A stretch of DNA of 64,000 nucleotides from the IMG/VR virus record IMGVR_UViG_3300017917_002187; one strand, written 5' to 3'. A model generated the notes under the pieces. The model saw only the letters and a list, made by a program, of their open reading frames with translations, made no database searches and was not told the DNA's origin. The position numbers were made by a program, and so were the translations under genes. Shown in pieces: positions 4,874 through 41,099 of this stretch (position 1 is its first letter; every line of letters begins with the position of its first letter). Source of the stretch: an uncultured virus (IMG/VR IMGVR_UViG_3300017917_002187) (Duplodnaviria; Heunggongvirae; Uroviricota; Caudoviricetes).

Positions 4874-4964
4874 GGTTAGGTGGCTGAATGGTGAAGCGGT
4901 CGACTCAAGAAAACGTAAGAAAAGAGGATCGACAATGATATGGGTTCGACTCCTGTACTGACCA
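4874..4964 (+). ncRNA. tRNA-like RNA with 25-nt anticodon loop (starts CT-CAA-GA, Leu-like)
   Basis: GGTTAGG/ACTGACC acceptor, GCT..AGC D-arm, GTCGA/TCGAC stem, GGTTCGACTCC T-loop; TACCTTTG promoter box at 4855-4862. Confidence 0.7.
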
Positions 4965-4990
4965 CAAAGTCCCTTAGACAAGGACTGTCT

Positions 4991-5085
4991 AAAGTAAAAC
5001 GGTGGGTGATAAGAATAACTGTCTTATCGATAAATGAACCATCGCTCAAGGTGACGTAAACGTTCAGCCCACCAAGTTTTACTTT
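4991..5085 (+). ncRNA. putative structured RNA
   Basis: AAAGTAAAAC/GTTTTACTTT and GGTGGG/CCCACC outer stems; inner GATAAGA/TCTTATC hairpin. Confidence 0.45.
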
Positions 5086-5118
5086 TTATAAGAATGAAAA
5101 ATATTAATTCAAATTAAA

Positions 5119-5301
5119 ATGGAAGACATAAAGAATAAAATGTTGGATTTGGCTTACGACTCAAAAAACAGTGACATACTCGAGAACGAAGATTTTTGGG
5201 TTGATGTAATAGTTGAGATTGAACATGCATCAACAGAACAGGAATTGTTATCAATTGGACAAGAGTACTTCAGTATTTCAAGTTTGGACGAAATAAAATA
5301 A
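5119..5301 (+). CDS. small acidic hypothetical protein
   Basis: 60-aa ORF in operon order. Confidence 0.65.
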   Translation: MEDIKNKMLDLAYDSKNSDILENEDFWVDVIVEIEHASTEQELLSIGQEYFSISSLDEIK

Positions 5302-5309
5302 ATAAGATT

Positions 5310-5786
5310 ATGGGAAGAATAAATAAAACAATAGATGGGGTATTCATAGATATTGTGGGTACCGAAGACGAAATAAGTTCATATGAACGATTTCTAAACC
5401 AGGGTAAGAACCTTAGGACAAGTAAGGAGCTTAAAAACGTTACCAAAGTTTATGAGAAGATGGTAAAGGACAATAAGGACCGATTCGAAAAGTTGGCATC
5501 TTTGGAGGAGATAATCATGCAGATGAGAATTCGTGAGAATCTTACCGGGATTAAATTATCTTTGGTACGTGAGTACGTATACGCACGTGTTCCTTTCTAC
5601 CGGGTCGGCAAGAAATCAAAGGATGTGAGGGTCATCGTCAACAAAGTGGATCTGTATCCCGGAGCTGAGGAGAATCTGGACATTTTGTCTGGAAACAAGG
5701 AGTTCATGGAAAGAGCCAAGGCTAAGCTGATCGAAGCCATTGACATAGAGATTGCTGAGAACATGACAAAGTATGGTTTAAAATAA
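5310..5786 (+). CDS. hypothetical protein
   Basis: 158-aa ORF. Confidence 0.75.
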   Translation: MGRINKTIDGVFIDIVGTEDEISSYERFLNQGKNLRTSKELKNVTKVYEKMVKDNKDRFEKLASLEEIIMQMRIRENLTGIKLSLVREYVYARVPFYRVGKKSKDVRVIVNKVDLYPGAEENLDILSGNKEFMERAKAKLIEAIDIEIAENMTKYGLK

Positions 5787-5792
5787 CATGTT

Positions 5793-6098
5793 ATGAAATA
5801 CCAAGACGAAATAAAGAAACTCAGAAAAGATATTCAGGGTGATATCATGAAGTTGTTTGAAAGAAAGAATTCAACTGTTGTTGCAAAAAGTATTAACTTT
5901 GTGAATTCACACTCAATTATTATCCGGGATGTCACGGGTACCGAAATGGACTATGTCCAAATATTCATCAATGGAGTTACTTCAGATGGTAGGTTAATCA
6001 CAGATGATAGACTCGTACCCATGGATGAGCTCACCATAGAACAGCTGGTTGGACTGAAGGCCAAAACAACTGATGGTGATCTTGAGTACCGGTTCTGA
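5793..6098 (+). CDS. hypothetical protein
   Basis: 101-aa ORF. Confidence 0.7.
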   Translation: MKYQDEIKKLRKDIQGDIMKLFERKNSTVVAKSINFVNSHSIIIRDVTGTEMDYVQIFINGVTSDGRLITDDRLVPMDELTIEQLVGLKAKTTDGDLEYRF

Positions 6099-6184
6099 TC
6101 GTGAGATTTAGTCTGGAAAAAAATAAAAAATTTTTATTTGGTTATTTACCATCTTTGTATTACATTTGAACAAACTTTACACAT

Positions 6185-6748
6185 ATGACTAAAATTAAAC
6201 TAAACAGCGAGGTCGTAGTATCCGACCCATGTTATGACATCCCGACTTGGTGTCATGCAATCCTTACCAATGTTCTACCTGGCTATTACCAACCATTCAT
6301 GAAGAAACATGATGCTGGTGACTGGGGGACAAGAAACAGTATGTTACTGGTAATCCATGAAGACCACCAATTCCAAGACTCATTTGAGTGGGAGGAATAT
6401 CCGGCAACCATCGGAGTGGACTCAGGTCAAGCTGGTATCTTCTCAAGAGAAACCTATAGAAACGACAACCATCCAATCGAAAAAGGTGAAGCTGATTTTG
6501 ATTATGGTAAAGATAAGGAAGGTGATGCATGGTACATGAAGATGTGTCAACGAACTCTTGGTGTAATACATTGGGGTGTGTATGACGAAGGTGTTGTTTG
6601 TAGCTCTGGATTCGGAGATGGTTCATACCAGCTATTCGTGGCCAAGAACGATCAGGACCAAGTCGTGGCGATGTGTATCGACTTCGGTGTTGAAGAAGAA
6701 CAAGAAATTGATTTTGAATTTTATAAAGATCCATTACACAATGTTTAA
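6185..6748 (+). CDS. DUF4241-like protein
   Basis: VSDPCY, GVDSGQAG, SGFGDGSY motifs; TACATTTG box at 6161-6168. Confidence 0.65.
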   Translation: MTKIKLNSEVVVSDPCYDIPTWCHAILTNVLPGYYQPFMKKHDAGDWGTRNSMLLVIHEDHQFQDSFEWEEYPATIGVDSGQAGIFSRETYRNDNHPIEKGEADFDYGKDKEGDAWYMKMCQRTLGVIHWGVYDEGVVCSSGFGDGSYQLFVAKNDQDQVVAMCIDFGVEEEQEIDFEFYKDPLHNV

Positions 6749-7010
6749 ATTTAAATGTATCCTCGGGATTGTTATCACCTCCATGGTGATAACATCTCTT
6801 GTGGGATGTTCGACAAAAAAGAATGGTTACCACAGGTGTTCACCATATGTTATTATGAGTAAGGACACCACAGAGATTTATATATTGGAGTCTCAAGTGT
6901 CTGCACAAATTAAATCAGTGTGGATAAACAACCCAATTAAAAACCCAAACAATATAAAAGTTAAAGTTGTGGATTCCACATCCTTTAATGTAATTTGCAA
7001 TCAAAACTAA
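6741..7010 (+). CDS. putative lipoprotein
   Basis: Start MFKFK at 6741; hydrophobic stretch ending LVGC. Confidence 0.55.
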   Translation: MFKFKCILGIVITSMVITSLVGCSTKKNGYHRCSPYVIMSKDTTEIYILESQVSAQIKSVWINNPIKNPNNIKVKVVDSTSFNVICNQN

Positions 7011-7014
7011 CAAC

Positions 7015-7458
7015 ATGGCAAAACAAGAAGAACCGGTAGTGATGACACCATCATTACTTCTAAATACGCATTGGTACCTGTTGACCCTAGCGTGTATGAC
7101 AGTGGTACCCCTAGCAATATTATTTGGTCTCATTAGTTTTTTCAGAACCATCTATGTATTGACATGGACATACACATTCTACAACACACATATAGTGGAA
7201 GAGAAGGGAATTCTGGTTAGGTCCTCCACGCAAGTAGATTTCACCAGATTACGAACGGTTAAATCTGATTCACACATCCTGATGATGCTGGTGGGTATTG
7301 GTAATGTTAGGATGGCCACTTCAGATGTGTATGTACCCGAGCTGGTTCTCCGGGGTGTAAGTAGTTACAGAGAGATTGAAGAGATTATAACTGATGAATG
7401 TCTAAACAATAGAAGATCCAACAAGAGGGTTGATATCGATAACTTCAACTTCAGTTAA
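7015..7458 (+). CDS. membrane protein with bacterial PH (bPH_2/YdbS-like) domain
   Basis: N-terminal TM segment then EKGIL, GIGNV pattern. Confidence 0.6.
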   Translation: MAKQEEPVVMTPSLLLNTHWYLLTLACMTVVPLAILFGLISFFRTIYVLTWTYTFYNTHIVEEKGILVRSSTQVDFTRLRTVKSDSHILMMLVGIGNVRMATSDVYVPELVLRGVSSYREIEEIITDECLNNRRSNKRVDIDNFNFS

Positions 7459-7465
7459 GGTATAT

Positions 7466-7676
7466 GGTCAGGTGGCGGAATGGTAGACGCTAATGGGTTG
7501 TTCCCATCTGATAAGTGAAGGGTTAATATACACTACGAAGAGGTATGAGGTGGTAACACCTTAAAGATGGGACTAACAAACAGCCCATACGAAAGGATTA
7601 AGTTCATATAAAGAAAACCCGTAGACCGTCCCTATTAATGAATAACTTAATACAGGTTCGATTCCTGTCCTGACTG
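7466..7676 (+). ncRNA. 211-nt tRNA-like RNA with two greatly expanded internal arms
   Basis: GGTCAGG/CCTGACT acceptor, GCGGAATGGTAGACGC D-arm, ACAGG-TTCGATT-CCTGT T-arm; internal stems 7493-7502/7579-7588 and 7597-7604/7644-7651. Confidence 0.7.
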
Positions 7677-7702
7677 CAAAGAATTCAAAATAGAATCAAC
7701 AT

Positions 7703-7876
7703 ATGAGTAACACAAGATGTAACAATTGTCTAAAGGATTATGACAAGAAGGAAGTTGCCCGAGTTAACGGGAAGGAAAGTATGGTACACTTATTGGGATA
7801 TTGTAGTTCCCAATGCTACACCGACATGGTGGAGAAGCTTAAGAAACAGAAAGAGGAGTCTGCTGGAAAGATCTGA
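7703..7876 (+). CDS. 57-aa zinc-finger-like protein (not in ORF track)
   Basis: MSNTRCNNC...YCSSQCY...AGKI*. Confidence 0.65.
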   Translation: MSNTRCNNCLKDYDKKEVARVNGKESMVHLLGYCSSQCYTDMVEKLKKQKEESAGKI

Positions 7877-8069
7877 GATGGAACATTTAGTCTGGAACCA
7901 AGATTCCCGGGGACGGACCTGAGATGGTAGATTTAGTCTGGAGTGAATCCGATCCTGAGGAAGGTGAATCGAGATTTAGTCTGGAATTTCGTTCTTTAAA
8001 AAGTTACCCACAAATTTTTTTTTCTCCATATTAATGATTATCTTTAGAACATATTAAATTAATCATATT

Positions 8070-8276: not shown

Positions 8277-8304
8277 TCACACTTAACATGTCTGTGTAAA
8301 GTTA

Positions 8305-8452: not shown

Positions 8453-8477
8453 ACGTGATATTTATAAGTAAAAAAAC

Positions 8478-8864: not shown

Positions 8865-8888
8865 CGTATATACATATATAATCTTTAT

Positions 8889-9159: not shown

Positions 9160-9450
9160 TTACAAGAACTTTATAATTAAATCATTAACCATTGTTCTCA
9201 TTTTTTTTTCTATGGTATAAAAACCCGGGAAGTTTCTGGATAAAACCACATGTACATGATCGACATAATACTTTAGTGGTACTCTCATAAAAAATGTGGA
9301 TGTGTATGTTTCATTATAATTATCATAAATTAATGAGTTAACTTTTACCCTTAAAACTTCTGGTTCAATTTCCTTTAAGGTAAATTTATATATACCATTT
9401 GTTATTGTATAGGTCGGATTACCCCTTAGTAATTTAAATTCATCTTTCAT
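9160..9450 (-). CDS. KLLRG-tag paralog family protein 1
   Basis: MKDEFKLLRG; TNGIYKFTL shared with neighbours. Confidence 0.8.
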   Translation of the reverse strand: MKDEFKLLRGNPTYTITNGIYKFTLKEIEPEVLRVKVNSLIYDNYNETYTSTFFMRVPLKYYVDHVHVVLSRNFPGFYTIEKKMRTMVNDLIIKFL

Positions 9451-9743
9451 AATATGTGTTCTTCTATTACCCTTACTATAGTTTCCATTATATGTTTTAC
9501 TTTATAATTGGAACCCCATATATATATACCCTCTATTAACACCTTTCCCCTTTGAACATATAATGATATATCTTTTTTCATTTGGATGAATCTTGTTACT
9601 TCTTTATATGTTCCACCATATTGATTATATGACAAAACAATACCGAGAATACCGGGTTCAACTTCTTTCATATGTATATGATATTCATCATTGGTGAAAT
9701 CATATTGTTTTATTCCCCTTAATAGTTTTAACTCGTTTATCAT
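9447..9743 (-). CDS. KLLRG-tag paralog family protein 2
   Basis: MINELKLLRG; TNDEYHI. Confidence 0.8.
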   Translation of the reverse strand: MINELKLLRGIKQYDFTNDEYHIHMKEVEPGILGIVLSYNQYGGTYKEVTRFIQMKKDISLYVQRGKVLIEGIYIWGSNYKVKHIMETIVRVIEEHIL

Positions 9744-10027
9744 AAGAAGTTTAATTTATCTGTTATTGAACCCATTATTAATACTATTGGTGTTTTTATT
9801 GGTATTAACCCTGCGAGGTGGTTTTCGGTCATTTCAATGTATTTTGTCATTGAATATCTCATTATTACCCTTCTTGTCATTCTTAATGGTTCGTCATCAT
9901 AGGTTGATGATATTTCAATAACCAAATAGTCCAACCATAGTTCTTCTATCTGACTCAATCTTATTGTATATTCTCCCCACGCGATTGTGTGAACACCAAA
10001 TCCCGATAATAACTTAAATTCTTTCAT
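9740..10027 (-). CDS. KLLRG-tag paralog family protein 3
   Basis: MKEFKLLSG; WGEYTIRL. Confidence 0.8.
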   Translation of the reverse strand: MKEFKLLSGFGVHTIAWGEYTIRLSQIEELWLDYLVIEISSTYDDEPLRMTRRVIMRYSMTKYIEMTENHLAGLIPIKTPIVLIMGSITDKLNFL

Positions 10028-10317
10028 ATTTGATTGAATTTTGCATAGGTTATTAATGACAATAAATTTTTAACTATTATTCTTGGTGAGATTATTGCAT
10101 TGGATACTGGTCTTATATATTTAATCAATTCCAAATATTGGTTAAATGTTCCCGTCATTTCAATTATCTCTGTTAGTAATATCAACCCTCTTTCGTTTTC
10201 ATGTTTTATTTCCACATATAATATATTAACATCCAACATTTCAATTATTATTGTGTATTCATTATAACATATGGTTTTTTTTCTTTGGTGTCCTGTTAAT
10301 AGTTTGTAGTGTTCCAT
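10024..10317 (-). CDS. KLLRG-tag paralog family protein 4
   Basis: MEHYKLLTG (ATG at 10317); YNEYTII. Confidence 0.8.
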   Translation of the reverse strand: MEHYKLLTGHQRKKTICYNEYTIIIEMLDVNILYVEIKHENERGLILLTEIIEMTGTFNQYLELIKYIRPVSNAIISPRIIVKNLLSLITYAKFNQI

Positions 10318-10338
10318 ATTGATTACTCCCACGGGCGA

Positions 10339-10632
10339 TTATTTTAGTATAAAATGTCTCAAATCTTCCTTTATGAAATTTAGATTGGTCTTGTAATCGG
10401 TATTGCTATTATTATCCAAATGATTAATCAATACCCTGGCGAAATCAATTGTGGAGTTAAAATGTCTCTTTGTCTCAAGAATATCCTCGTTAATTATATC
10501 ATCACCATAACTAATCGAATAATATATGGCATCACTCGATAACCTGGCCAAATATATCTCATATGGTCCATTGGTTAAGAATATTCTATCCCTGCCAGTT
10601 AATAATTTGTATGTATCCAATAAATTAGTCAT
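10339..10632 (-). CDS. KLLRG-tag paralog family protein 5
   Basis: DTYKLLTG; TNGPYEIYL. Confidence 0.8.
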   Translation of the reverse strand: MTNLLDTYKLLTGRDRIFLTNGPYEIYLARLSSDAIYYSISYGDDIINEDILETKRHFNSTIDFARVLINHLDNNSNTDYKTNLNFIKEDLRHFILK

Positions 10633-10921
10633 TCTGTGTCTTTAAAATTACATTGTATATAACCTTCACAATTTCTGGTGGAGTTTCATCCAAATATGTT
10701 ATGGTCATCTTCATCATGATTTCGGATACCTTAACAATACTTTGAAAACTATGATTATTCATATTCATTCCATCATATGTCATTATATGATAATCACCCC
10801 CGGATTCGTATTTTACCTTTAATGATAATGTATTCTCGGTTAATTTCTTTAGTTCAACCGAATATGGTCCATTTGTTAGTGTTCTATGATACCACCCGCG
10901 AATTAATTTATATCCTTCCAT
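10625..10921 (-). CDS. KLLRG-tag paralog family protein 6
   Basis: MEGYKLIRG; TNGPYSVEL. Confidence 0.8.
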   Translation of the reverse strand: MEGYKLIRGWYHRTLTNGPYSVELKKLTENTLSLKVKYESGGDYHIMTYDGMNMNNHSFQSIVKVSEIMMKMTITYLDETPPEIVKVIYNVILKTQND

Positions 10922-11243
10922 ATGTTATTGGTTCGTCACAATTTGGACATTCCGTCAACAAAAGTAAATTATTTTTGTGAAATGACCAATTGGATACCAT
11001 TAATTTTTCTTCTATGGTTAATAAGGTATATCCATCCAGATTATCTACCTCACCATATATGTCATAATGCTTGTTCTTGTATCTGGTTATAATATGATTC
11101 TTATGTGGAGATATGTATGGTGTGCAACCTTTATACATCTTTGATAGGAGCACGTGGAATTTATAACACCCACCCTGCGTATATATGTGGTGAATGTATG
11201 GGTCCGTATTCCTTAATTCATCAATAAAATCAATTAGTTTCAT
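10908..11243 (-). CDS. conserved phage hypothetical protein
   Basis: YTQGGCYKF, HIIT, YDIYG, C-terminal CPNC. Confidence 0.75.
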   Translation of the reverse strand: MKLIDFIDELRNTDPYIHHIYTQGGCYKFHVLLSKMYKGCTPYISPHKNHIITRYKNKHYDIYGEVDNLDGYTLLTIEEKLMVSNWSFHKNNLLLLTECPNCDEPITYGRI

Positions 11244-11246
11244 TTT

Positions 11247-11507
11247 TCAATGCAACAATGTTGATATATAAATCCCCAAGTATGATCCAACAACACTACC
11301 CGAAACATATCCGAACCACTGGTGGAATGCTTCCTCACTCTTTGAAATCTTCCTGATTACAAAGAAATTTAATGATGCGATGGTGAAATCACTGATTGCC
11401 GCCAGATGATACTGAGCATCAGCCACCGCTCGGTAGTTTATACATAATATCCCATACAATATTACCTGTATAATGAATAGTAGGGATGCTTCTTTAATTT
11501 TTTTCAT
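11247..11507 (-). CDS. small membrane protein
   Basis: Several hydrophobic segments; probable start MKKIKE. Confidence 0.65.
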   Translation of the reverse strand: MKKIKEASLLFIIQVILYGILCINYRAVADAQYHLAAISDFTIASLNFFVIRKISKSEEAFHQWFGYVSGSVVGSYLGIYISTLLH

Positions 11508-13765
11508 TGTGATATGGTTTGTTATTAATATAATCATCAAAACTATGGTAGAGTTTTTTCACGTGCTCCATATCACAACTACCATCATCAGGGTCCACAT
11601 TTACCGGGTAATGTGCATTGTATTCAATCTCATCATTATCATGTTTCTTTATACTATACCACCCGAATCCCTGATTGGTGGATTTCGATGCATAGTTAAT
11701 TCCAAACTTATGTCTAGAATCTTCACCTAACCACCCATATGCAATTAGGTGGTCAATCTCTTTAAATGTGAAATCTTTCATTTTTACCTCCAAATTATTT
11801 CCGTTTCAACTGATATAACCTCATCACCGTCCTCTTTTTCTCGTTCAGACATGTACCTATTAATCCCATCTAAAACATCTTCTCTTGATTGGAATTTAGT
11901 TCCTTCATTCCAATATGAACCACCACATCCATTTAGATATTTTTCATTATCTCTAAAGTTTAATAAAAATAAACTAATACCATCTCTAGTCCAAACTAAT
12001 GAATATACTTTCTTTACTTTACATATGTAATAAAATTTCCCGTTTAATCGGGTGTGTTTTAATATTGTGAATTTATATTTTTTCATTTTTTAGTTTAATG
12101 CGGATTTGATTTTATTTAATAATTGGATATCATCAACCCTGCTAGGATCCATAATTTCCAAAATGTTATCAAGCTCATATGACAACGAACCCCTGACTTC
12201 AGGAATTTCTAAATGTGATTCATCAATCTCTTCGATTGTTTCCACCAAATCAATCACCAATTGACTATGTTTTTCCATTTGATAAAACGTGGCATTCGAT
12301 GCCTCTTTTATCGTTTCAATTAAATTACTATTCATAACCTTCTATTCTTTTATCTTTGTATGTTATTGTTATTAGTTTGGTTGGGGTCGGTTCATAATAT
12401 TCGTCATTAAAATCAGGAACATTGTCTTCATAATACTCCATGCCAGTTTCATAGTTGTTTGAAAACCACATTTTGTATCTTTCCGAATATGTTAATTCTC
12501 GTTCTTCAATCTTTAGTCCCCACCTTATAGAGTATTCTATATTATGTTTACACTTATCTATAAACAAATTTTTTGTGTGAGGTTCAATACCAGAAGGTGT
12601 AAACGAATCACAATAATCATCATATGCTTTATCCAACAATTCTAATTGTTCTTTGTCCATAACTTTCTATTGTTTAATTCTTTTTCCTGGGTAATGTTTG
12701 TTCTGAATTCTTTGTTTACAAACTTCCTGTTAAACCAATCCCATACTTTCTTTGATGAATTCTTTTTAGGAATCTGAGCATTTTGACTTATCGAAACGAA
12801 GTTTTTCGATTTACATGTGTTGTAATGTGGTCTACTTCCGTGAGCATGACACTCTGGACAATATGAAACTGTTTTCCACCAATGGTCTTGTCTGTTGGAA
12901 CCTTGTTCCAACGTTGTTGCTGTTAATTTACGTCTAGACATCTGGTTTTTTATTTTTTACAATTTCGATTAATTTAATTAAACAAGCAAGTTCTGCTTCT
13001 TCGTATGAATAACAATCTGGAACTTCAGCAACACACCCTGAAGAAAGCCTTAATTGGTCAACTAAATCCATATATTCAGGTGTTGTTTTATGAATAATAA
13101 CAGCATGATTGCCATTACGTAAGTAAAATATTTGGAACATAAGATTATGTTTTTCTCTAAACCATCTAAATGCTTGTTGGTATAGTGGTGCAATTACTTC
13201 TTCATCTGAAACATTATATCCTTTCTTATAATATCCTTCAGATTCGTATAATTTCCCATCAGAATCATAAAATGAAAAACATTTTTCATCAAACCCTAAC
13301 TCTTTTAAGGCTAACGATTGTTCGTAAGGTGCGAATTCTCTATTCATACTGTTCAATTATAGTAATTACTTTTATCTTTACCAAATCAGCATCACTTAAA
13401 CCGAATTTATCTGATTGGGCAACATCTGTTGGTGTGGTTAATTTATTATTCCATATAATCGCATCGGCTGGATTGTCGAACCATTCTCTACTGAAGTAAT
13501 CGGATTTCCCATGACCAAAATATTTTCCGTCATTTGAACGGATTAAAATACCTTCACCGGTTTTTCTTCCGATTTCAATTCTGTGTTCAACCAATCTACA
13601 ATCATCAATCGGAACCCAATCCTTCTGAGAAACATTATGGGTTCCCCCACTCCAATCACCCTCCAATTCCAATTCATGTTCCCGGATTCCAACAACACTG
13701 AACACTTCCCCGTGGTTATATCCACGACCACAGGTTACCTTGTCTTTTAATTTATAATTGTTCAT
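11494..13765 (-). other. run of 7 short hypothetical CDSs (11494-11793, 11784-12086, 12090-12335, 12328-12660, 12642-12941, 12934-13356, 13340-13765)
   Basis: Abutting or overlapping minus-strand ORFs; 12934-13356 has an EF.PYEQSLALKELGF...APLYQQAFRWFR pattern common in Bacteroidota phages. Confidence 0.7.
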
Positions 13766-34390: not shown

Positions 34391-34715
34391 AGTCGATGTA
34401 TTTTATGTGTATGTTATTTTTAACTGCAAATTCAATTTCTTCGGCAACACCTCTTGATCGATTCCAACCATCCATTTTGTAAACCCAAAGTTCATCACAA
34501 TGACGAAGAATGGATATACAGAAGTTATTCCAAAACTCCCAGTCGGTTGGCATTTGTTTATAATCCAACAATGTGTGACCATAGGTTATCGGTGAAACAA
34601 CAACTAATCCTTTAGAAACCAATTCGGCTGCTTTTTTTGTTACCTTGGTGTAGTTTTCTTCCCGGACTTTTTCATCTGGATGAGAATAAGGTGATGCTAA
34701 ATAAATCATTCCCAT
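34383..34715 (-). CDS. DUF1937 / NDT-like protein
   Basis: IYLASPYSH, SPI, CDELWV, GW..S.GV.EE. Confidence 0.8.
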   Translation of the reverse strand: MGMIYLASPYSHPDEKVREENYTKVTKKAAELVSKGLVVVSPITYGHTLLDYKQMPTDWEFWNNFCISILRHCDELWVYKMDGWNRSRGVAEEIEFAVKNNIHIKYIDYE

Positions 34716-35194
34716 TATATTGTGCTTAATTTATTTTTAACAAGGGTTAAAGCCTGACCCAAAAGATTAAGACCTAACCAATATGACGGGTCTTCAATCC
34801 CTTCCGCACTTTCATCAAGACCAATACCCCAAATATTATCATATGAAGACGCTTCAACAAATATCCTATTTCCGGTTGACAACATTTGTTCTTTTAGTTC
34901 TGGGTTTTGAGTAAATTTTGCCAGGTTTCCTTCATAAACAATTGACAAACAGTTTTTATCCCAAACAGATTTATCGAAGTTCTTGATCATTCGACCATAC
35001 TTCTTTTGTTCCCTTGGGTTTGTTTCATTCATGATTAACTCAGCAATCTCGTTATCACCAAACAATAATGCCTTTTGGTGCATCATGTATTGTTCACATG
35101 AATTGTATTCGATTTTATCAATCGTCATTGGTGCCTTGTGCCACTGCGAATATATTCCATTATAAAAGAATACGTAGTTATCCGTTATTTTCAT
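34715..35194 (-). CDS. NADAR (YbiA-like) family protein
   Basis: SQW, EQYMM.QKA.LFGD, KF.QN.EL, EAS.YD.IWGIG, G.NLLG. Confidence 0.9.
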   Translation of the reverse strand: MKITDNYVFFYNGIYSQWHKAPMTIDKIEYNSCEQYMMHQKALLFGDNEIAELIMNETNPREQKKYGRMIKNFDKSVWDKNCLSIVYEGNLAKFTQNPELKEQMLSTGNRIFVEASSYDNIWGIGLDESAEGIEDPSYWLGLNLLGQALTLVKNKLSTI

Positions 35195-35195
35195 T

Positions 35196-36176
35196 TTAGA
35201 ATACGTTTAATTGTTTAACTAAACTGTGAATTGTTTTGTGTCTTGAGAATGTGTCTACAATTGTTCCGTCTTGAACATCTTTAACACTGTTTGTACAGTA
35301 TATACCATCAAGATGTTGTGCTAAAAAATCGAAACCCGCACTGAAGATACCATGAGTAACAACAAGATAAATCTTACCTTGAAATGTTTCATTACCATCA
35401 ACATAAACACATTGGTCGGGTGTCCACACATGTGATTTAATTACCTTAGCAATTTCAATGAATGTTCTTCCACCATCACAAATATCATCAAAGATAAAGA
35501 AGTCTTCTGTTGGTCTTGTATTGTTAAGTGGTACTTGAGTAAAATCTATTTTACCGGTTTCTAAATTCCTGTGTTTTGATGCGATTACAATATCTTTTTT
35601 GTAGTTAAAACTATCGGCAACATGGAATACTTTTTTCAACGCACCAGCATCAGGTGATACCAAACGAACATTTTCAAAATTCATTTTATCCCAAGTTTCA
35701 AAACCTTTTGATATAAAGTATTCTTTAAATGCAAACTGTGCGAGTTTAATATTATCAATCTTAACGAAGTTATCGATACAAGCCTCAAGTACATCGGAGT
35801 GTGGGTCCATAATTGTTACTTGTTCATAACCTTGTGAGTTAATGATTGGTGCAATTACGTGTTTCACATAATTGATTCCACCTTCCATAAACTTTCGATC
35901 ACTTCTTGCCCCAGTACAATATGGTGTGAACAATCTAATTCTTTTAACACCAACCTCTTTTAGTGCTTGTGTCGCACAAATGATGATTTCTAAATCACGG
36001 AAATCATTCAAACGTGACTCAATTGTAATCCCGTTGTGGTTTTCTCTTAGTGAGTAAAATGTGTTATACCCATCTTCAATCAATCTTAATGATTGTTGAC
36101 CATCGGGGAATTTGCTTATCTCATATTTGAAAGATAATGAATCGTTTGGATTAACCAAATTTAATACTTCTGCCAT
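35196..36176 (-). CDS. ribose-phosphate pyrophosphokinase-like (probable NARP1 Adps)
   Basis: FPDGQ, PY..ARSDR, DPHS, SPDAGA, DDICDGGRTF, VTHG. Confidence 0.85.
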   Translation of the reverse strand: MAEVLNLVNPNDSLSFKYEISKFPDGQQSLRLIEDGYNTFYSLRENHNGITIESRLNDFRDLEIIICATQALKEVGVKRIRLFTPYCTGARSDRKFMEGGINYVKHVIAPIINSQGYEQVTIMDPHSDVLEACIDNFVKIDNIKLAQFAFKEYFISKGFETWDKMNFENVRLVSPDAGALKKVFHVADSFNYKKDIVIASKHRNLETGKIDFTQVPLNNTRPTEDFFIFDDICDGGRTFIEIAKVIKSHVWTPDQCVYVDGNETFQGKIYLVVTHGIFSAGFDFLAQHLDGIYCTNSVKDVQDGTIVDTFSRHKTIHSLVKQLNVF

Positions 36177-36179
36177 AAT

Positions 36180-37544
36180 TTAATGTCTGTTTTTATCTCT
36201 TTCTTCAATTTCTTTTTTGGTGATGTCAACAAAAAGGTCAACATCGTATCGTATAATTGGTATACCACCACCATCTATTGTTGTGTATTTCTTACCATAA
36301 CTGCTCCAACCTCCGTAGTTGTGTCGGAATAAAAACTCACGACCTTCTTCATCGGTGAAACCAATTTTTAGTTCCGATGAACCATGTGATTTCCCTCTTA
36401 TTTTACCAAGAACTTTTACCTCATGTTTTAATAAACCATGCTCCAATGGGTCATTATTTTCACCATCTCGATTCCAACGATGTGGGTCAAGTTCTTTTGG
36501 GTGGATAACACATTTAAAATTGATTGGGGTGTTATTATTAATCCTATCCATCATAATCCATTCCATTAGATATGCACTCTTACTACCAGTTAGTTTGGTA
36601 TAAGTTTTATCCTTCTTCAATTGCTCAACCAATTTTTTAACTTCGTCCTTTTTCTCGGCATATGTTAATGTAATTTCACCACCCAACATTTCGTTGAAAA
36701 TGTTTTTGTAAAGAGGTACGATTTGATTAACAATTTTCTGAGAATCCACACCTTGTCCGTCACCAACCTTATGAAATTTCTCATGTAGTTTTTTCAAGAT
36801 TTCATTTTCATTTACTTTACGTAAAAAGAACTCACTTGAAAACTCTTTATCGGGATGTTGAAGTCTGGTTTTGTAAATTAATGCACCCATGATTGGTGTA
36901 ATCATCACATCAGAACCAAGTAAAGACTCAATGAATTTCATATCAGAAATAAACATTGGGTTTAACATTCTTTCCTTCACACTAAGATTCTCATGAGTGT
37001 CTATTGTACTCTCCCTCCAATATTTTTTTTCAGTGTCACTCAATGTGAGATATGCATCAAAGGTGTTATAGTATTTTGGTATGTTCAAACCAAAAATCGT
37101 GTGCATCCCAAGTGCAAATCCGCGGTCAAAGTATTTTCCACCACTACCATAAAATTTAAAATGGTTTAAATAAATCAACAACTTCATTATTTGCTGATTA
37201 TCTAACACACTCTCATCATAAATTCTAACATTAATTCTGTGGTTAGGTGAATTATACCATAATAAACGTCTGAACCCATCAAGAAGGATTAAATCACCAT
37301 TATCTTTTCTCATTAGAAAAAATGATTGGTATTCGTAAATTTCAACTGGTGGGTTTTGTGAAACATCATCACCACCACCACGATTAAAATCTTCGGGATT
37401 GATTCCTTGAGATTTAAGATTATCTAACAAGTATTCTCTCAATTCTTTTGCATTCGCAGTGCCAAATGTATATTCCGCTTCCAAATACTCATCATAAGAC
37501 TTGTACTTTTCACTTGATAAGGGGAGATTGGTGTGTAGTTGCAT
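36180..37544 (-). CDS. protein with ParB-like N-terminal domain
   Basis: LILLDGFRRL. Confidence 0.55.
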   Translation of the reverse strand: MQLHTNLPLSSEKYKSYDEYLEAEYTFGTANAKELREYLLDNLKSQGINPEDFNRGGGDDVSQNPPVEIYEYQSFFLMRKDNGDLILLDGFRRLLWYNSPNHRINVRIYDESVLDNQQIMKLLIYLNHFKFYGSGGKYFDRGFALGMHTIFGLNIPKYYNTFDAYLTLSDTEKKYWRESTIDTHENLSVKERMLNPMFISDMKFIESLLGSDVMITPIMGALIYKTRLQHPDKEFSSEFFLRKVNENEILKKLHEKFHKVGDGQGVDSQKIVNQIVPLYKNIFNEMLGGEITLTYAEKKDEVKKLVEQLKKDKTYTKLTGSKSAYLMEWIMMDRINNNTPINFKCVIHPKELDPHRWNRDGENNDPLEHGLLKHEVKVLGKIRGKSHGSSELKIGFTDEEGREFLFRHNYGGWSSYGKKYTTIDGGGIPIIRYDVDLFVDITKKEIEERDKNRH

Positions 37545-37603
37545 TTTAATTCATCTTTTACATCACAAAGATAACGTTATTCCGGAATATCCCAAATTAT
37601 TTT

Positions 37604-38389
37604 TTATCCTGACCAATGAAGGTAATATTGTTCTTTGTTTTCCTTTGACAAAACATACTTAATTGTGTCACGGACAATCTCAAGTGCGTTTATATACCAA
37701 GTGTTATCACTCTCAGTCACAACATACACACATGGTTGTTCATTGAAAATTTTGTGTGTTCCCGGAATCATTGCCAAAACCTTTTGTGGTTCATGGAATG
37801 AAAACTCACCATTAGAGTTTGAATAATTATAACCTTCATCTCCTGGTTTCTTTTTACCCAATTCACCCATAAAAATATCTAACGCTTCTTTTTCAGAATG
37901 AACATCGGGTTGTTTAAATATGTTATTTGAAACATGGTGAACTCGATATGCCCCTTTCTGTTTAAACATTTCAATCACCTCTTCACAACGAACCAAAGAC
38001 TCCTCCCAATTTGGTTGGAAATGATATTCATCGTTGTGGTTAAAAATATCACTCATTGTTGGTAGCCCCAAGTTTCGAAGAATTCTTTCAATACCACCTT
38101 CGTTGTATGAACTTCTGAAGTATCCAATTTTGAAATAGTGGTCAGGATAATTTGGATGTGGTTCTTCAATCTGTTCTCGTGTCGTTTCATCCGAACCCCA
38201 TTCATCCAAACCCAAAGATTTTGCATGTTCTTTAATTTTTGAACGTACCTCTTCTTTTTGTTCATCGGTTAACGAATTATAATCACCGGCTTTAGTCCAT
38301 GCGTTATCATCAAACACACTTTGTTTTTCTTCGAGTTCTCTTGTTTTCTCGTAATTATCGTAACGATAAAGATATATGTCTAATCCCAT
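37604..38389 (-). CDS. MGLD-family phage protein
   Basis: MGLDIYL, GYFRSSYN, C-terminal YYLHWSG. Confidence 0.75.
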   Translation of the reverse strand: MGLDIYLYRYDNYEKTRELEEKQSVFDDNAWTKAGDYNSLTDEQKEEVRSKIKEHAKSLGLDEWGSDETTREQIEEPHPNYPDHYFKIGYFRSSYNEGGIERILRNLGLPTMSDIFNHNDEYHFQPNWEESLVRCEEVIEMFKQKGAYRVHHVSNNIFKQPDVHSEKEALDIFMGELGKKKPGDEGYNYSNSNGEFSFHEPQKVLAMIPGTHKIFNEQPCVYVVTESDNTWYINALEIVRDTIKYVLSKENKEQYYLHWSG

Positions 38390-38390
38390 A

Positions 38391-39938
38391 TTAGAGTTTG
38401 TTTAAACGTTCACGAATTTCAGTTAAAGTTGTTTGATTATGGAATTGTCCATTCTCATAAATCGTTTGAAGAATACCTTGTGATTCTTGTTCAGGTGTAC
38501 ATTGTGTTAACACCTCGTGGTTTTCGGTAACACAGATTAAACCCTTCAATGACTTCTTGGTACCATCATCGGTTACAGGATCTTTGTAGATGTCGTAACC
38601 TTTCTTATGTAAACCAGGTTGAATATCCTCATGATCACTAGCCGAAATATATTCTTCTACTTCAAACCAAGCACCTTTGGCTGCGAAACCTAATGTGTCA
38701 CGGGTATTCATTTGGTAAGTGAATGAACCAACACCTAATACAATATTGGTTGCTGCAAATCCTTTTGCTTCTAATCTCTCGTAGATTTCCAATTGACGTT
38801 CCAATGTAATTGAATCACCATAGATTGCTCCGATGTGTGGGTCAAGAACCTTATAACCTTGTTCATTGATTGTTCCACCAAAGATGTCCCAAAGAAGTTC
38901 GACTACACCTGAATCAGCAGGTTCCCATTTTTTATTTTCAGGATCTTCTGAAATTATTTCTAAAATTCTTTCTTTATCACAAGCACGTACTCTTCCACAG
39001 ATAATATCAACAGGGTCACCCGAGTCAGGTCTAATTACCAATTTACCATCACGAGCCATAATAGCTTCTTTGTTTGCTGGTAAGTATTCAGTAATTAATT
39101 TCCATAAATCAAATGTATCAGATACAATTGATAAGATACCTTTAGGGAAATCAACTAACCAATCAGCAATCATTTGTTGTTCACCAACAGTAAAGATTTT
39201 GGTTGTTGATACTGAGTGTTCAGATGCGTTTACAGAGTACACCGATACTTGGTCTTCAGGTTCGTTGTAGAAATAACGCGCTCCCGGAATACAAATGATT
39301 GTATCTGAACCCAAGAATGATGATGCGTGTCCAAGACCACTTGATAACATATCCCATGGACTTAATCCACGAGCAGAGAAGTCGTGACAAAGGAAAGGAA
39401 TTAACCATGCGTTAGCTGGGTCCGTTTTCATCACCCATTCAACAACATTACGTCTGTATTGTAATGCTATCGTTGCAGATGTTGATGGTTTCCATGACAA
39501 CGAACTGATAATAGTTTCCAAATACAATGTCAACCATGCAAATCCATCAACGGTGTTAATGAAAGTCATGTGAGGTATATTTGGATTTGTTTCAATACCT
39601 TCAGGTAATGATTTGACACGAATAGGTAAGTAACCTAGTTTATGTAACTCAACGAAGTGTGATGCATCATAATCCATACCAAGATACATTGACATATCTT
39701 TTCCGAATTTTTCAGCAACTTCAACTGGTTGACTGAAGAAATGCTCTTGAAACTCATCATGTAACCATTTTACAACTAGTTGTTGTCCGAATGATACAAT
39801 CTTACTAACACCCTTAGGTGCATATTTGATACTACGAGGTATCCACGTTCCATATAAACGTGTTGTACCTTTGGCTAACATTCTTTTGTGACCGATTTTG
39901 TAACCGTCTGTGTAAAAAAGTGAAATGGGTCTAAACAT
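38391..39938 (-). CDS. nicotinamide phosphoribosyltransferase-like (probable NARP1 Namat)
   Basis: TDGYK..H, HDFSARG, ASEHS, SIVSDTFD, IRPDSGDP, YGDSIT, KDP.TD.GTKKS.KG; start moved to MFRPI so it does not overlap the tRNA-like gene. Confidence 0.9.
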   Translation of the reverse strand: MFRPISLFYTDGYKIGHKRMLAKGTTRLYGTWIPRSIKYAPKGVSKIVSFGQQLVVKWLHDEFQEHFFSQPVEVAEKFGKDMSMYLGMDYDASHFVELHKLGYLPIRVKSLPEGIETNPNIPHMTFINTVDGFAWLTLYLETIISSLSWKPSTSATIALQYRRNVVEWVMKTDPANAWLIPFLCHDFSARGLSPWDMLSSGLGHASSFLGSDTIICIPGARYFYNEPEDQVSVYSVNASEHSVSTTKIFTVGEQQMIADWLVDFPKGILSIVSDTFDLWKLITEYLPANKEAIMARDGKLVIRPDSGDPVDIICGRVRACDKERILEIISEDPENKKWEPADSGVVELLWDIFGGTINEQGYKVLDPHIGAIYGDSITLERQLEIYERLEAKGFAATNIVLGVGSFTYQMNTRDTLGFAAKGAWFEVEEYISASDHEDIQPGLHKKGYDIYKDPVTDDGTKKSLKGLICVTENHEVLTQCTPEQESQGILQTIYENGQFHNQTTLTEIRERLNKL

Positions 39939-39967
39939 GATTTTATTATTTAAAGTTTTGAATTTTG

Positions 39968-40045
39968 TGGTCAGGGTAGGCATCGAACCTACATCTTCTC
40001 CACCTTTGTGAAGGGGAGACGCTTTACCCCTTAAGCTACCTGACC
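39968..40045 (-). ncRNA. tRNA-like RNA with elongated anticodon arm
   Basis: GGTCAGG/CCTGACC, GCTT..AAGC D-arm, TCTCC/GGAGA enclosing 13 nt CCTTCACAAAGGT, GTAGG-TTCGATG-CCTAC. Confidence 0.75.
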
Positions 40046-40101
40046 ATGGCGGGCTCCGATTATTTAATTAACAGAACGTTGCCCAAGTAAACTGCTGTAT
40101 T

Positions 40102-40602
40102 TTACACTAACATTAATAAGGTTCTCTCATCAAATGTGTATTTGGTATCGGTCTTAACTTTTTCACCATTGAGGTATGTTGTTTCCTCAAAAGTTGTTGG
40201 GTTATATTTAGTTGTGACCACATTACCAACCAAAGATGAAATCTCGTTGGTTGTGCCAGGAATACCTTCGATATCATTACCATTTGTTTTTGCTGAATAG
40301 ATTGCGAACTCACCGCTCTTAGTTATGTACCCAACAAAGATTTTCTTACCAGTACCATATGCCACACCCAACTCTCTTTTCAGACCAATTGGTAGTTCAT
40401 GATAACTCGCTTTGAACTTGTTGTAAGGTAAGATGAAAAGATACGCATCAGATGTATCAAACATTCTTTGGTCATATCTTGTTCCACGTTCCCAATGATA
40501 CGAAGTTAGACCATCTATACTGTCCACCAACTCGGCGAACTCGTCCAACACTTCTTCGTCAACAGCAATTGGACAACTTATGTATATCCGTTTATTCGCC
40601 AT
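40102..40602 (-). CDS. NDT/TIR-like fold protein
   Basis: IYISCP, SDAYLF, G.KREL..AY..GKKIF. Confidence 0.5.
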   Translation of the reverse strand: MANKRIYISCPIAVDEEVLDEFAELVDSIDGLTSYHWERGTRYDQRMFDTSDAYLFILPYNKFKASYHELPIGLKRELGVAYGTGKKIFVGYITKSGEFAIYSAKTNGNDIEGIPGTTNEISSLVGNVVTTKYNPTTFEETTYLNGEKVKTDTKYTFDERTLLMLV

Positions 40603-40942
40603 CTCCGAAGTATTTGTTGAATGATTCTTGTTTTGCCGTCAACTCAAGAGTAATCAATTTCAACTTGTACTCAAGGTCGATGATTTTCTTGAAACGAGCC
40701 TCAACAGAGTCTTTGGTCATTGCTTGATAACCTTTGTTCACATCGGTCTCAAGGTTGAAGTTTGTCAATTCAAACAACTCATCTTCGATAGCCTCTTTTT
40801 TGGCGGTTAGGGTGTCGATAACATCACGTTGAATGTTACGCTTCACTGCGGTTGCGTAATTCTCAGCACGTTCTGCCACTGTCTTGTTGGATTTCAAAAG
40901 CTCTAATGCTTTCATTTCTTTGTTACTGTTCTTGTTTGCCAT
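40592..40942 (-). CDS. helical coiled-coil hypothetical protein
   Basis: 116-aa ORF. Confidence 0.75.
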   Translation of the reverse strand: MANKNSNKEMKALELLKSNKTVAERAENYATAVKRNIQRDVIDTLTAKKEAIEDELFELTNFNLETDVNKGYQAMTKDSVEARFKKIIDLEYKLKLITLELTAKQESFNKYFGDGE

Positions 40943-41016
40943 GATATTTTGTTATTAAAAATGTGGTACAATATTAATGGATGTTTTTCAATCCGCCAAA
41001 TTTATTTTTTTTTTTG

Positions 41017-41099
41017 AAGTCAGGATAGGATTCGAACCTATATGAGGGCTTACAACCTCGGATATTCTATTTACGACAACACCATGTCGCCACCTGACC
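41017..41099 (-). ncRNA. tRNA-like RNA with rearranged D/anticodon region
   Basis: GGTCAGG/CCTGACT, GCGACA/TGTCGT hairpin, GAGG/CCTC hairpin, ATAGG-TTCGAAT-CCTAT. Confidence 0.65.

What the first reader, a model, noticed from the sequence alone, without database searches (positions are those of the whole stretch)
4874..41099. Family of four tRNA-scaffold RNAs with a shared acceptor stem and variable central arms
Seen: 4874-4964(+), 7466-7676(+), 39968-40045(-) and 41017-41099(-). All begin T|GGTYAGG-TR-GC, end with a GGTTCGA T-arm plus (C/A)CTGACY, and are followed by N-C-A-A rather than CCA. None has a normal 7-nt anticodon loop; lengths are 91, 211, 78 and 83 nt. Inference: not decoding tRNAs but a paralogous ncRNA family using the tRNA elbow/acceptor as a scaffold. 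Possible roles are RNase P/Z processing marks, decoys for anticodon nucleases or synthetases, or carriers of variable RNA cargo. The same window encodes CCA-type, Thg1, RNA ligase and Pth2-like enzymes that could mature them.
Basis: partly seen in the sequence, partly recalled or inferred. Interest (0 to 1): 0.82.

Follow-up and report, generated by a model that had tools for sequence, protein, structure and literature searches.

The report
Phage tRNA-shaped RNAs carrying variable inserts
Four genes in this large phage keep the top half of a leucine tRNA but swap the codon-reading arm for unrelated inserts, and they belong to a large family of such RNAs in environmental phages whose job is unknown and which I could not find described in print.

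Summary
Four elements (91, 211, 78 and 83 nt) share the 5' GGTYAGGTRGC and the 3' T-arm plus acceptor strand. Each motif occurs only at these four sites in the window. None of the four has a usable anticodon arm.

They belong to a very large viral family:
- Only 4 of 178 have canonical anticodon-arm geometry.
- A complete relative (171.7 kb) carries eight of them beside 21 ordinary tRNAs. One is a normal tRNA-Leu(UAA) with near-identical D and T arms.

Inserts are conserved with compensatory changes across unrelated genomic contexts (elements 1, 2 and 4). The 5' leaders and 3' trailers match those of the phages' real tRNAs, which points to tRNA-type processing.

The proposed tie to phage Thg1, CCA-adding and RNA-ligase genes does not hold (1, 1 and 2 of 5 records). 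No Pth2 was found.

Best reading: non-decoding RNAs on a tRNA-Leu-derived scaffold with exchangeable cargo. The function is unknown and I had no expression data.

This scan noted the same family before on other DNA (e1-4035489). My literature searches found no description of it.

The parts
4874..4964 (+). Scaffold RNA 1 (91 nt). G1-C72 acceptor, D arm GCUGAAUGGUGAAGC, a 5-bp stem GUCGA/UCGAC enclosing a conserved 25-nt purine-rich segment, T arm, discriminator A73, then CAA.
   Evidence: Rfam tRNA 36.8 bits. Family model R1 45.1 bits. Two relatives in other contexts (L217, L218) keep the 25-nt segment, while 2 of the 5 stem pairs change on both sides. Fold.
7466..7676 (+). Scaffold RNA 2 (211 nt). 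Exact tRNA-Leu-type D arm GGCGGAAUGGUAGACGC, about 160 nt of structured sequence between the D arm and the T arm (including an AGGUG-GUAA-CACCU hairpin with a GNRA-type tetraloop), T arm, discriminator G73, then CAA. It starts 8 nt after the stop of ORF 7015-7458.
   Evidence: R1 matches both halves, 22.8 and 26.2 bits. No Rfam family at E up to 10. Fold z-score -2.18. A homologue about 90% identical by eye lies in L167; its flanks are unrelated and homology starts and stops at the tRNA-like ends.
39968..40045 (-). Scaffold RNA 3 (78 nt). Best tRNA body of the four. The anticodon arm is replaced by a 9-bp bulged stem closed by the tetraloop CACA. Discriminator A73, then CAA.
   Evidence: Rfam tRNA 56.6 bits. 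R1 52.2 bits. Fold z-score -3.66, with MFE equal to the centroid. No relative of the insert was found: 0 hits in IMG/VR, and none of 67 metagenome hits lies in a scaffold context.
41017..41099 (-). Scaffold RNA 4 (83 nt). G1-U72, a 6-bp D stem, a conserved 13-nt single strand UAAAUAGAAUAUC, a hairpin GAGG/CCUC with an 8-nt loop, T arm, discriminator U73, then CAA.
   Evidence: R1 55.4 bits. Rfam gives only tRNA-Sec at 23.3 bits, below the gathering score. The same insert type occurs in 13 further viral loci. Covariation on 11 sequences: 97.5% of cells paired, 4 pairs changed on both sides, 0 of 500 shuffles reach the score.
4819..4853 (+). Terminator-like hairpin of the upstream gene, ending 20 nt before scaffold RNA 1.
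   Evidence: Consensus scan only. No functional evidence.

Best explanation
The four elements are genes for non-decoding, tRNA-shaped RNAs. They belong to a large family found mainly in viral contigs and derived from a phage class II tRNA-Leu.

Shown:
- They keep an almost invariant acceptor stem ((A/G)GUCAGG with CCUGAC(U/C)), a T arm and usually a D arm with the GG elbow contact.
- The anticodon and variable arms are replaced by unrelated inserts of about 25 to 160 nt (sometimes the D loop carries an insert too).
- Inserts fall into many types, and each type is conserved across phages, with compensatory changes where I tested it (elements 1 and 4).

Inferred:
- The constant top half makes the RNA a substrate for the host's tRNA-maturing enzymes. 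These would be RNase P at a U(-1)/A(-2)/A(-4) leader, and tRNA-type 3' trimming and CCA completion after N73-C74. The element would then be cut out of the polycistronic transcript and stabilised. This is the logic of the laboratory tRNA scaffold for expressing recombinant RNA.
- The insert (cargo) carries the specific activity, most likely binding a host or phage protein or RNA.
- The conserved ends also let cargo be swapped between phages by recombination.

What any cargo binds is unknown.
For: Family membership:
- Model R1, built from 50 elements of other phages, finds exactly these four in 64 kb (55.4, 52.2 and 45.1 bits; element 2 as two halves).

Size and diversity:
- 184 elements, 180 distinct, 65-257 nt long.
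- 151 insert clusters.

Non-decoding:
- Default ARAGORN of 180, many with ANN anticodons.
- 4 of 178 have a correctly placed 5-bp stem with a 7-nt loop, U33 and R37.

Not simply the phage's tRNA set:
- The complete relative G001 has 21 ARAGORN tRNAs with differing acceptor stems.
- One is a normal tRNA-Leu(UAA) with near-identical D and T arms but acceptor GCUCCGA.
- The same genome has 8 scaffold copies.

Inserts under selection:
- Element 4 type: 97.5% of cells paired, 4 pairs changed on both sides, 0 of 500 shuffles reach the score; slid controls pair 29-45%.
- Element 1 type: the loop is conserved while 2 of 5 stem pairs are compensated.
- Element 2 has a relative about 90% identical by eye with unrelated flanks.
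- Inserts fold better than shuffles: mean z -0.68, n=108, p=2e-9.

Processing signals:
- In 201 contexts, -1 is T in 80%, -2 is A in 70% and -4 is A in 74%.
- Position 73 is A in 90% and position 74 is C in 98%, followed by A-rich sequence.
- Ordinary tRNAs of G001 have the same leader and trailer.
- Element 2 starts 8 nt after an ORF stop, so it must be cut from a longer transcript if expressed.

Cargo exchange:
- The window and L001 are 97% identical for about 60 nt up to GUCAGGUG, then differ inside, then match again in the T arm and acceptor.

Viral origin:
- Only 36 stretches in 185,579 species genomes. The 27 full-length elements found there all carry non-canonical middles, and I saw no host tRNA-Leu with this acceptor stem.
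Against: - I have no expression, end-mapping, CCA or charging data.
- The main scan fixed the 3' acceptor strand, so the apparent invariance of the acceptor is partly an ascertainment effect. The cargo-based retrieval controls this for only one insert type.
- Element 3's insert has no detectable relative.
- No shared motif, no known Rfam family (51 of 51 matches at E up to 0.01 in 20 loci were tRNA) and no conserved neighbouring protein was found. Among 120 flanking ORF fragments the largest cluster holds 4, and 17 of 120 have any Pfam family. So nothing says what the cargo does.
- Complementarity searches with the conserved single strands of elements 1 and 4 found no target in the window above chance.
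- The mean folding z-score is modest, and 26% of inserts fold no better than shuffles.
- The near-invariance of the acceptor sequence is not explained by generic processing needs.
Confidence: 0.58

Rival explanations
1. Decoys or sponges. The constant tRNA top half (acceptor, T arm, elbow) would titrate a host factor that recognises tRNAs there. Candidates are a tRNA-targeting defence nuclease or 3'-end-modifying toxin, a synthetase, or EF-Tu. The middle would be free to vary, or would vary to evade cleavage.
For: - The acceptor stem is far more conserved than the other helices, even when members are retrieved by their insert. In one search, 5 of 7 acceptor pairs never vary and none is compensated, while the D, T and insert helices each have compensated pairs.
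- The scaffold keeps the leucine-identity features listed in PMC9976931 (passages read): A73 in 90% of contexts, a Leu-type D arm with A14/A15 and G18/G19 as the consensus of 50 aligned elements, and a T mostly just before the T stem, where U48 would sit (read by eye).
- That paper states that E. coli tRNA-Leu lacking the anticodon and variable arms is still charged.
- Defence systems that cut class II tRNAs exist: Septu cleaving the variable loop of tRNA-Tyr (PMC13096335, abstract seen in the listing).
- The window lies among anti-defence-type genes, including an Acb3 homologue.
Against: - A pure top-half decoy needs no large, structured insert conserved by type, yet inserts are conserved with covariation.
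- The discriminator is not fixed. The window has A, G, A and U, and it varies within the element 4 type, which argues against an obligatory leucine identity.
- No host tRNA with this acceptor stem was found in 185,579 species genomes.
Confidence: 0.15
2. Processing punctuation. The elements would serve mainly as RNase P and 3'-processing sites that cut polycistronic phage transcripts and set the stability of neighbouring mRNAs. The released RNA would be a by-product.
For: - All four lie in short gaps between co-directional genes, and element 2 starts 8 nt after a stop codon.
- 90 of 120 flanking ORF fragments in other phages are on the same strand as the element.
- Leader and trailer composition matches that of real tRNAs.
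- No conserved promoter signal appears upstream, and promoter-like sites are not enriched.
Against: - Punctuation does not explain inserts of up to about 160 nt.
- It does not explain their conservation by type across unrelated contexts, the near-invariant acceptor sequence, or arrays of many copies among tRNA genes with no ORFs to separate (e.g. 6 copies in 3.2 kb in L027).
Confidence: 0.12
3. True tRNAs interrupted by inserts that are spliced out to give ordinary decoding tRNAs, for example element 1 as tRNA-Leu(CAA) with an 18-nt intron at 37/38.
For: - With introns allowed, ARAGORN reads element 1 as Leu(caa) i(37,18) under every option.
- CUCAAG...A flanking the insert would make a canonical loop, and it is kept in both relatives.
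- The window encodes an RNA ligase.
Against: - For elements 2 to 4 ARAGORN's anticodon changes with the option or needs odd geometry.
- Across the family the sequence diverges immediately after the D arm and up to the T stem, so there are no shared anticodon-arm exons.
- The putative 18-nt intron of element 1 is itself conserved, while the stem covaries.
- No group I intron or any other Rfam family matches.
- Relatives with many copies have intron-less normal tRNAs and lack Thg1 and the CCA enzyme; only 2 of 5 have an RNA ligase.
- From general knowledge, no enzymatic tRNA-splicing pathway is known in bacteria.
Confidence: 0.07
4. Non-functional DNA: decaying tRNA pseudogenes, attachment-site remnants, or a selfish MITE-like repeat whose tRNA-like ends are kept by gene conversion rather than by RNA function.
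For: - Many copies sit in unrelated contexts with near-identical ends.
- The 7-bp acceptor halves form terminal inverted repeats.
- Presence at a given locus is not conserved beyond close relatives: 0 of 11 loci around the homologue of the gene upstream of element 1 have one. Only 2 of 13 loci around the Band_7 homologue do.
Against: - Both halves are always present and paired.
- Compensatory changes occur in the D, T and insert helices.
- The elbow GG and T loop are retained.
- Strand bias with neighbouring genes.
- Leader and trailer signals are shared with real tRNAs.
- Inserts are more structured than shuffles.
Confidence: 0.08

Closest known systems
Bacterial and phage class II tRNA-Leu (for example the tRNA-Leu(UAA) of the relative phage G001, L163:5904-5988)
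   Same: The D arm GGCGGAAU(U)GGUAGACGC, the T arm ACAGGUUCGAWUCCUGU and, in 90% of copies, A73. The retained features are those PMC9976931 lists as sufficient for leucylation in E. coli.
   Different: The acceptor stem is AGUCAGG, not that of the decoding tRNA-Leu. There is no anticodon arm, and unrelated inserts replace the anticodon and variable arms. The window copies have discriminators A, G, A and U.
Phage T4 'species 1' and 'species 2' stable RNAs (rnaC, rnaD) and phage T5 RNA1
   Same: Phage-encoded, tRNA-like, non-decoding stable RNAs of unknown function that sit with tRNA genes. This rests on my recollection and on earlier notes e1-4035489 and e1-5816491.
   Different: Those are single genes in model coliphages. 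Here a constant acceptor and T arm is shared by more than 150 insert types across many environmental phages. Sequence relatedness was not tested.
Laboratory 'tRNA scaffold' for expressing recombinant RNA (Ponchon and colleagues; PMC3753655, title and abstract seen in the listing)
   Same: Same architecture: cargo RNA takes the place of the anticodon arm, and the tRNA body provides processing and stability.
   Different: That system is engineered. Here the design is natural, and its processing and stability are inferred, not shown.
tRNA-mimic modules of tmRNA and bacterial Y-RNA-like YrlA
   Same: An acceptor and T-arm mimic without a decoding anticodon, joined to another functional domain (from general knowledge).
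   Different: ARAGORN finds no tmRNA. No tmRNA or YrlA family matches in Rfam. The ends here form a normal acceptor stem, unlike the permuted YrlA.
Candidate tRNA-like structured RNAs reported in bulk from IMG/VR (Fremin et al. 2023, PMC10690425; passages read)
   Same: [quoted passage not shown]
   Different: The passages I read describe no family with a constant acceptor and variable inserts. I did not read its supplementary tables.

Membership tests
Decoding tRNA (Rfam RF00005) | Cloverleaf with a 7-bp acceptor stem, D arm and T arm, scoring above the Rfam gathering score of 29 bits | tested here: inconclusive
   Element 3 scores 56.6 and element 1 scores 36.8, both above the cut-off. Elements 2 and 4 do not match tRNA; element 4 reaches only 23.3 bits to tRNA-Sec, whose gathering score is 47.
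Decoding tRNA (Rfam RF00005) | A 5-bp anticodon stem with a 7-nt loop, U33 and a purine at 37, at the canonical place | tested here: not met
   0 of 4 window elements in the folds and 4 of 178 family members. ARAGORN anticodons are inconsistent.
Intron-bearing tRNA | Exon halves that form a canonical anticodon arm once a contiguous insert is removed, with the anticodon consistent across relatives | tested here: inconclusive
   Possible only for element 1, as Leu(caa) i(37,18). Not met for elements 2 to 4. Family sequences diverge directly after the D arm.
Intron-bearing tRNA | A recognisable self-splicing intron (group I) within the insert | tested here: not met
   No intron family or any other family at E up to 10 across 4700-7900.
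   55.4, 52.2 and 45.1 bits for elements 4, 3 and 1. Element 2 matches as two halves, 22.8 and 26.2 bits. No other hit in the window at E up to 10.
   All four have T at -1 and N-C-A-A after position 72. Family frequencies are 80% T(-1) and 98% C74.
Leucine-accepting tRNA (E. coli identity set as listed in PMC9976931) | A73, A15-U48, G18G19 and A20a, with D-loop/T-loop tertiary contacts; the anticodon is not required | tested here: inconclusive
   Elements 1 and 3 have A73, element 2 has G73 and element 4 has U73. All four have the D-loop GG. Element 2 has the full Leu-type D arm. Charging cannot be tested with these tools (for the identity set).
tmRNA | A tRNA-like domain plus a tag-peptide reading frame | tested here: not met
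   ARAGORN reports no tmRNA and there is no Rfam tmRNA match.
Phage T4 rnaC/rnaD-type stable RNAs | Sequence or structure homology to the T4 species 1 and 2 RNAs | not tested
The resemblance is recalled only.

The most novel reading that the evidence does not exclude
Phages of freshwater and other environments (hosts possibly Bacteroidota) would run a natural plug-and-play RNA expression system. One nearly invariant tRNA-Leu-derived top half would act as a universal processing and stability scaffold, and perhaps as a recombination handle. It would carry more than a hundred interchangeable structured cargo RNAs, such as aptamers, inhibitors or regulators aimed at host factors including defence proteins. 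Phages would shuffle these cargoes among themselves as accessory 'RNA genes'.
Probability: 0.3. Interest if true: 0.9.

Novelty: new variant of a known kind. Interest (0 to 1): 0.7.

Why it matters
Phage tRNA-like stable RNAs have been known for decades without an assigned function (recalled). Here the phenomenon turns out to be a large, modular family that standard tRNA finders mislabel or miss and that Rfam holds only as weak tRNA hits.

If the inserts are the active parts, the family is an untapped library of natural structured RNAs displayed on a ready-made scaffold. That would bear on phage-host conflict and on RNA engineering. It would also explain many 'tRNA-Undet' or pseudo-tRNA calls in viromes.

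The nearly invariant acceptor stem points to a still unknown sequence-specific partner. The four window genes give concrete constructs for RNase P cleavage, CCA addition, charging and pull-down experiments.

Tried and rejected
- Whole genome of the window: none is held.
- Near and distant BLAST against INPHARED phages: no relative, apart from a 120-nt coding match to a 735-kb uncultured phage.
- Synteny around elements 1 and 2: 11 loci at 37-49% protein identity, none with a scaffold element.
- Shared cargo motif. An SD-like GAGGU looked recurrent by eye but is only mildly enriched (15 of 119 inserts against 5.5 expected, z 3.6, over 1,024 5-mers). In element 2 it is part of a hairpin capped by a GNRA-type tetraloop. 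I dropped it.
- Antisense targets of the conserved single strands of elements 4 and 1 in the window: 20 matches against 16.9 expected, and only the self match.
- Known RNA families in the inserts: all 51 matches at E up to 0.01 in 20 loci were tRNA.
- Conserved neighbouring protein. Among 120 flanking ORF fragments the largest cluster holds 4. 17 of 120 have a Pfam family: Terminase_3 four times, HNH once, and no tRNA enzyme.
- Obligatory phage maturation enzymes: Thg1 in 1 of 5 records, PolyA_pol in 1 of 5, RNA_ligase in 2 of 5.
- Relatives of element 3's insert: 0 in IMG/VR. The 67 metagenome matches to the 17-mer are all outside any scaffold context.
- Promoter and terminator scans were not above shuffles.
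- A host tRNA with the same acceptor: not found.
- Literature. Six answered searches and passages of three papers gave no description of this family. One search failed on a too-short term.

Full report
**1. What is in the window**

The window is a low-GC (about 33%), densely packed stretch of small ORFs, as in a large phage. No whole genome is held for it. It has no close relative among deposited phage genomes.

- The 5' motif GGTYAGGTRGC occurs four times, only at these sites. Chance gives 0.68.
- The 3' motif GGTTCGANKCCTRYMCTGAC also occurs four times, only at these sites. Chance gives 0.01.
- Each element is preceded by T and followed by N-C-A-A.
- All four are co-directional with their neighbouring ORFs and sit in short gaps between them. 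Element 2 begins 8 nt after a stop codon.

**2. They are tRNA-shaped but cannot decode**

- Rfam tRNA scores 56.6 bits for element 3 and 36.8 for element 1.
- Element 4 reaches only a sub-threshold tRNA-Sec match, and element 2 matches nothing.
- Default ARAGORN calls two of them, with anticodons aca and aga. With introns allowed it calls all four, but the anticodons of elements 2 and 3 change with the option.

Folding gives the acceptor, D and T arms in each, and then:
- Element 1: a 5-bp stem extended by 3 pairs, around a 17-nt purine-rich loop.
- Element 2: about 160 nt of structured sequence between the D and T arms, including a hairpin capped by a GNRA-type tetraloop (fold z -2.18).
- Element 3: a 9-bp bulged stem closed by a tetraloop (fold z -3.66).
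- Element 4: a 6-bp D stem, a 13-nt single strand and a small hairpin (fold z -2.27).

**3. They belong to a very large viral family**

The close relatives L001 and L002 (Band_7 protein 94% and 86% identical) carry elements with the same ends but different middles near the same gene.

From these I extracted:
- 184 elements, 180 of them distinct, 65-257 nt long, with no peak at tRNA lengths;
- 151 insert clusters.

The consensus is AGUCAGG-UG-GCGGAAU(U)GGUAGACGC, then the insert, then ACAGGUUCGAAUCCUGU-CCUGACU-A-C. Some members carry class I-type D arms, and a few carry inserts in the D loop.

Default ARAGORN of the 180; the script printed 181 as the denominator because it counted a trailing header. 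Only 4 of 178 have a correctly placed 5-bp stem with a 7-nt loop, U33 and R37. Two of those four are Lys(UUU)-like.

A covariance model (R1) built from 50 elements of other phages finds exactly the four window elements and nothing else.

In 185,579 species genomes the same motif gives only 36 stretches.
- The 27 full-length elements found there all carry non-canonical middles.
- The 11 other matches either run off a contig end or show no tRNA-like 5' half.
- Most lie on contigs of metagenome bins, and 19 of 36 sit in records labelled with groups I recall as Bacteroidota.
- I saw no host tRNA-Leu with this acceptor stem.

**4. Origin, and separation from real tRNAs**

The complete 171.7-kb relative G001 has 18 R1 matches. 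By my reading these are 8 scaffold elements plus ordinary tRNAs that score lower.

Its tRNA cluster holds 21 ARAGORN tRNAs with differing acceptor stems and no introns. One is a normal class II tRNA-Leu(UAA). Its D and T arms are nearly those of the scaffold, but its acceptor is GCUCCGA. So the family is a tRNA-Leu derivative kept beside a full decoding set.

In arrays of other phages, scaffold elements (30-50 bits to Rfam tRNA) sit among ordinary tRNAs (56-70 bits).

**5. The inserts are under selection**

- Element 4's insert type recurs in 13 further viral loci with several unrelated flanks. On 11 sequences, 97.5% of cells pair, 4 pairs change on both sides, and 0 of 500 shuffles reach the covariation score. 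Slid controls pair 29-45%. In that set, which was retrieved by insert and not by acceptor, the acceptor has no compensated pair while the D, T and insert helices each have at least one.
- Element 1's type (L217, L218) keeps the 25-nt loop sequence, while 2 of 5 stem pairs are compensated.
- Element 2 has a relative about 90% identical by eye (L167). Homology starts at the first base of the acceptor and ends at its last base, and the flanks are unrelated.
- Element 3's insert is a singleton.
- Overall, inserts fold better than dinucleotide shuffles: mean z -0.68, n=108, p=2e-9, with 26% at z above 0.
- The window and L001 are 97% identical for about 60 nt up to GUCAGGUG, then differ inside, then agree again in the T arm and acceptor. 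This indicates replacement within a conserved frame.

**6. Processing signals**

Over 201 distinct contexts:
- -1 is T in 80%, -2 is A in 70% and -4 is A in 74%;
- position 72 is T in 94%, 73 is A in 90% and 74 is C in 98%, and 75-77 are A-rich;
- no promoter-like signal appears further upstream.

The 21 ordinary tRNAs of G001 show the same N73-C74-AAA trailer (20 of 21 have C74), and most have T at -1. U(-1) and A(-4) are leader preferences of bacterial RNase P, as I recall them. The simplest reading is that scaffold RNAs mature by the same route as the phages' tRNAs. This is inference.

**7. What does not hold**

- Thg1, the CCA-type nucleotidyltransferase and RNA ligase do occur in the window. 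Among five family-bearing records they occur in 1, 1 and 2, and complete G001, with 8 copies, lacks the first two.
- No Pth2 family was found in the 105 ORFs scanned.
- Flanking genes are unrelated from phage to phage and include no tRNA enzyme.
- No known RNA family, shared motif or in-window antisense target was found for the inserts.

**8. Mechanism**

The best-supported model is a tRNA-Leu-derived scaffold that secures excision and stability, carrying an exchangeable cargo domain with the specific, unknown activity.

The leucine-identity features are A73, A15-U48, G18G19 and the elbow contacts. According to PMC9976931 (passages read) they suffice for charging even without the anticodon and variable arms, and they are present in the family consensus. 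Charging is therefore possible. However, the discriminator varies in the window (A, G, A, U) and within the element 4 type, so charging is unlikely to be the common function.

The near-invariant acceptor sequence is unexplained. It could reflect an unknown sequence-specific partner, or concerted evolution through recombination between copies.

The rivals are decoy, punctuation, spliced tRNA and selfish or decaying DNA. They are weighed in their own sections.

**9. Novelty**

Six literature searches and passages from three papers gave no description of this family. A bulk survey mentions tRNA-like candidates in IMG/VR without describing it (PMC10690425, passages read; supplements not read).

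This scan flagged the same family earlier on other DNA (e1-4035489). My results agree with that note. They add the processing-signal profile, per-type covariation, the lack of linkage to maturation enzymes, the scarcity in cellular genomes and the cargo replacement at one locus.

**10. Limits**

- I have no RNA data.
- The main scan and model R1 are biased toward the consensus ends.
- R1 E-values are rough.
- Host assignment rests on the labels of metagenome bins.

Noticed in passing
window 47282-51924 (-) and 63370-63948 (-): An RNA repair and tRNA-maturation gene set. It comprises an RNA ligase with a PHA02142 OB-fold, a class I/II aminotransferase, a Thg1-like protein, a 167-aa unknown and a short CCA/poly(A)-polymerase-type nucleotidyltransferase. 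A HAD 'Swiss army knife' RNA-repair domain protein lies further on. The set is not linked to the scaffold RNAs across relatives.
   Followed up: partly
window 34715-39983 (-): A run of NAD-related genes: a NADAR domain protein, a phosphoribosyltransferase-domain protein, two unknowns and a NAPRTase/Nampt-family protein. It resembles phage NAD+ salvage or reconstitution modules, as I recall them. The longest ORF of the NAPRTase gene overlaps scaffold RNA 3 by 16 nt, so an ATG further downstream (near 39935) is a more likely start.
   Followed up: no
window 18410-19201 (-): A homologue of the anti-CBASS protein Acb3 (Pfam PF25187, E 9.5e-36). It places the region among anti-defence accessory genes.
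   Followed up: no
window 9160-12941 (-): Thirteen consecutive head-to-tail ORFs of 81-111 aa. Only the first three are more than 25% identical to one another, and one is YunG-like.
   Followed up: partly
L006:8265-8336 (+): A more distant relative of the window phage carries a tRNA with anticodon UUA (ochre suppressor type) near the Band_7 homologue. This may be a sign of stop-codon recoding in that phage.
   Followed up: no
L037:599-669 (-) and L073:599-669 (-): Two family members combine the AGUCAGG acceptor with a canonical tRNA-Lys(UUU) anticodon arm (loop CUUUUAA). The stem is compensated between the two (CCGAC/GUCGG against CCGAU/AUCGG). They are possibly real decoding tRNAs built on the scaffold.
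   Followed up: partly
L021, L052, L055, L089: In four contigs a scaffold RNA lies directly upstream of the large terminase gene (Terminase_3). In two of them a small-terminase-like or DUF5681 gene precedes it.
   Followed up: no
L163 (G001:46500-54000): Ordinary tRNA genes of the related phage almost all end N73-C74 followed by AAA rather than an encoded CCA: 20 of 21 have C74 and 2 have a full CCA. This is a conserved trailer whose role in 3' maturation is unclear.
   Followed up: partly
Several family inserts, e.g. L058:535-622, L044:871-960, L191, L192: Some inserts contain internal hairpins with a T-loop-like GGUUCGA sequence, that is, a second T-arm-like module nested in the cargo (seen by eye).
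   Followed up: no
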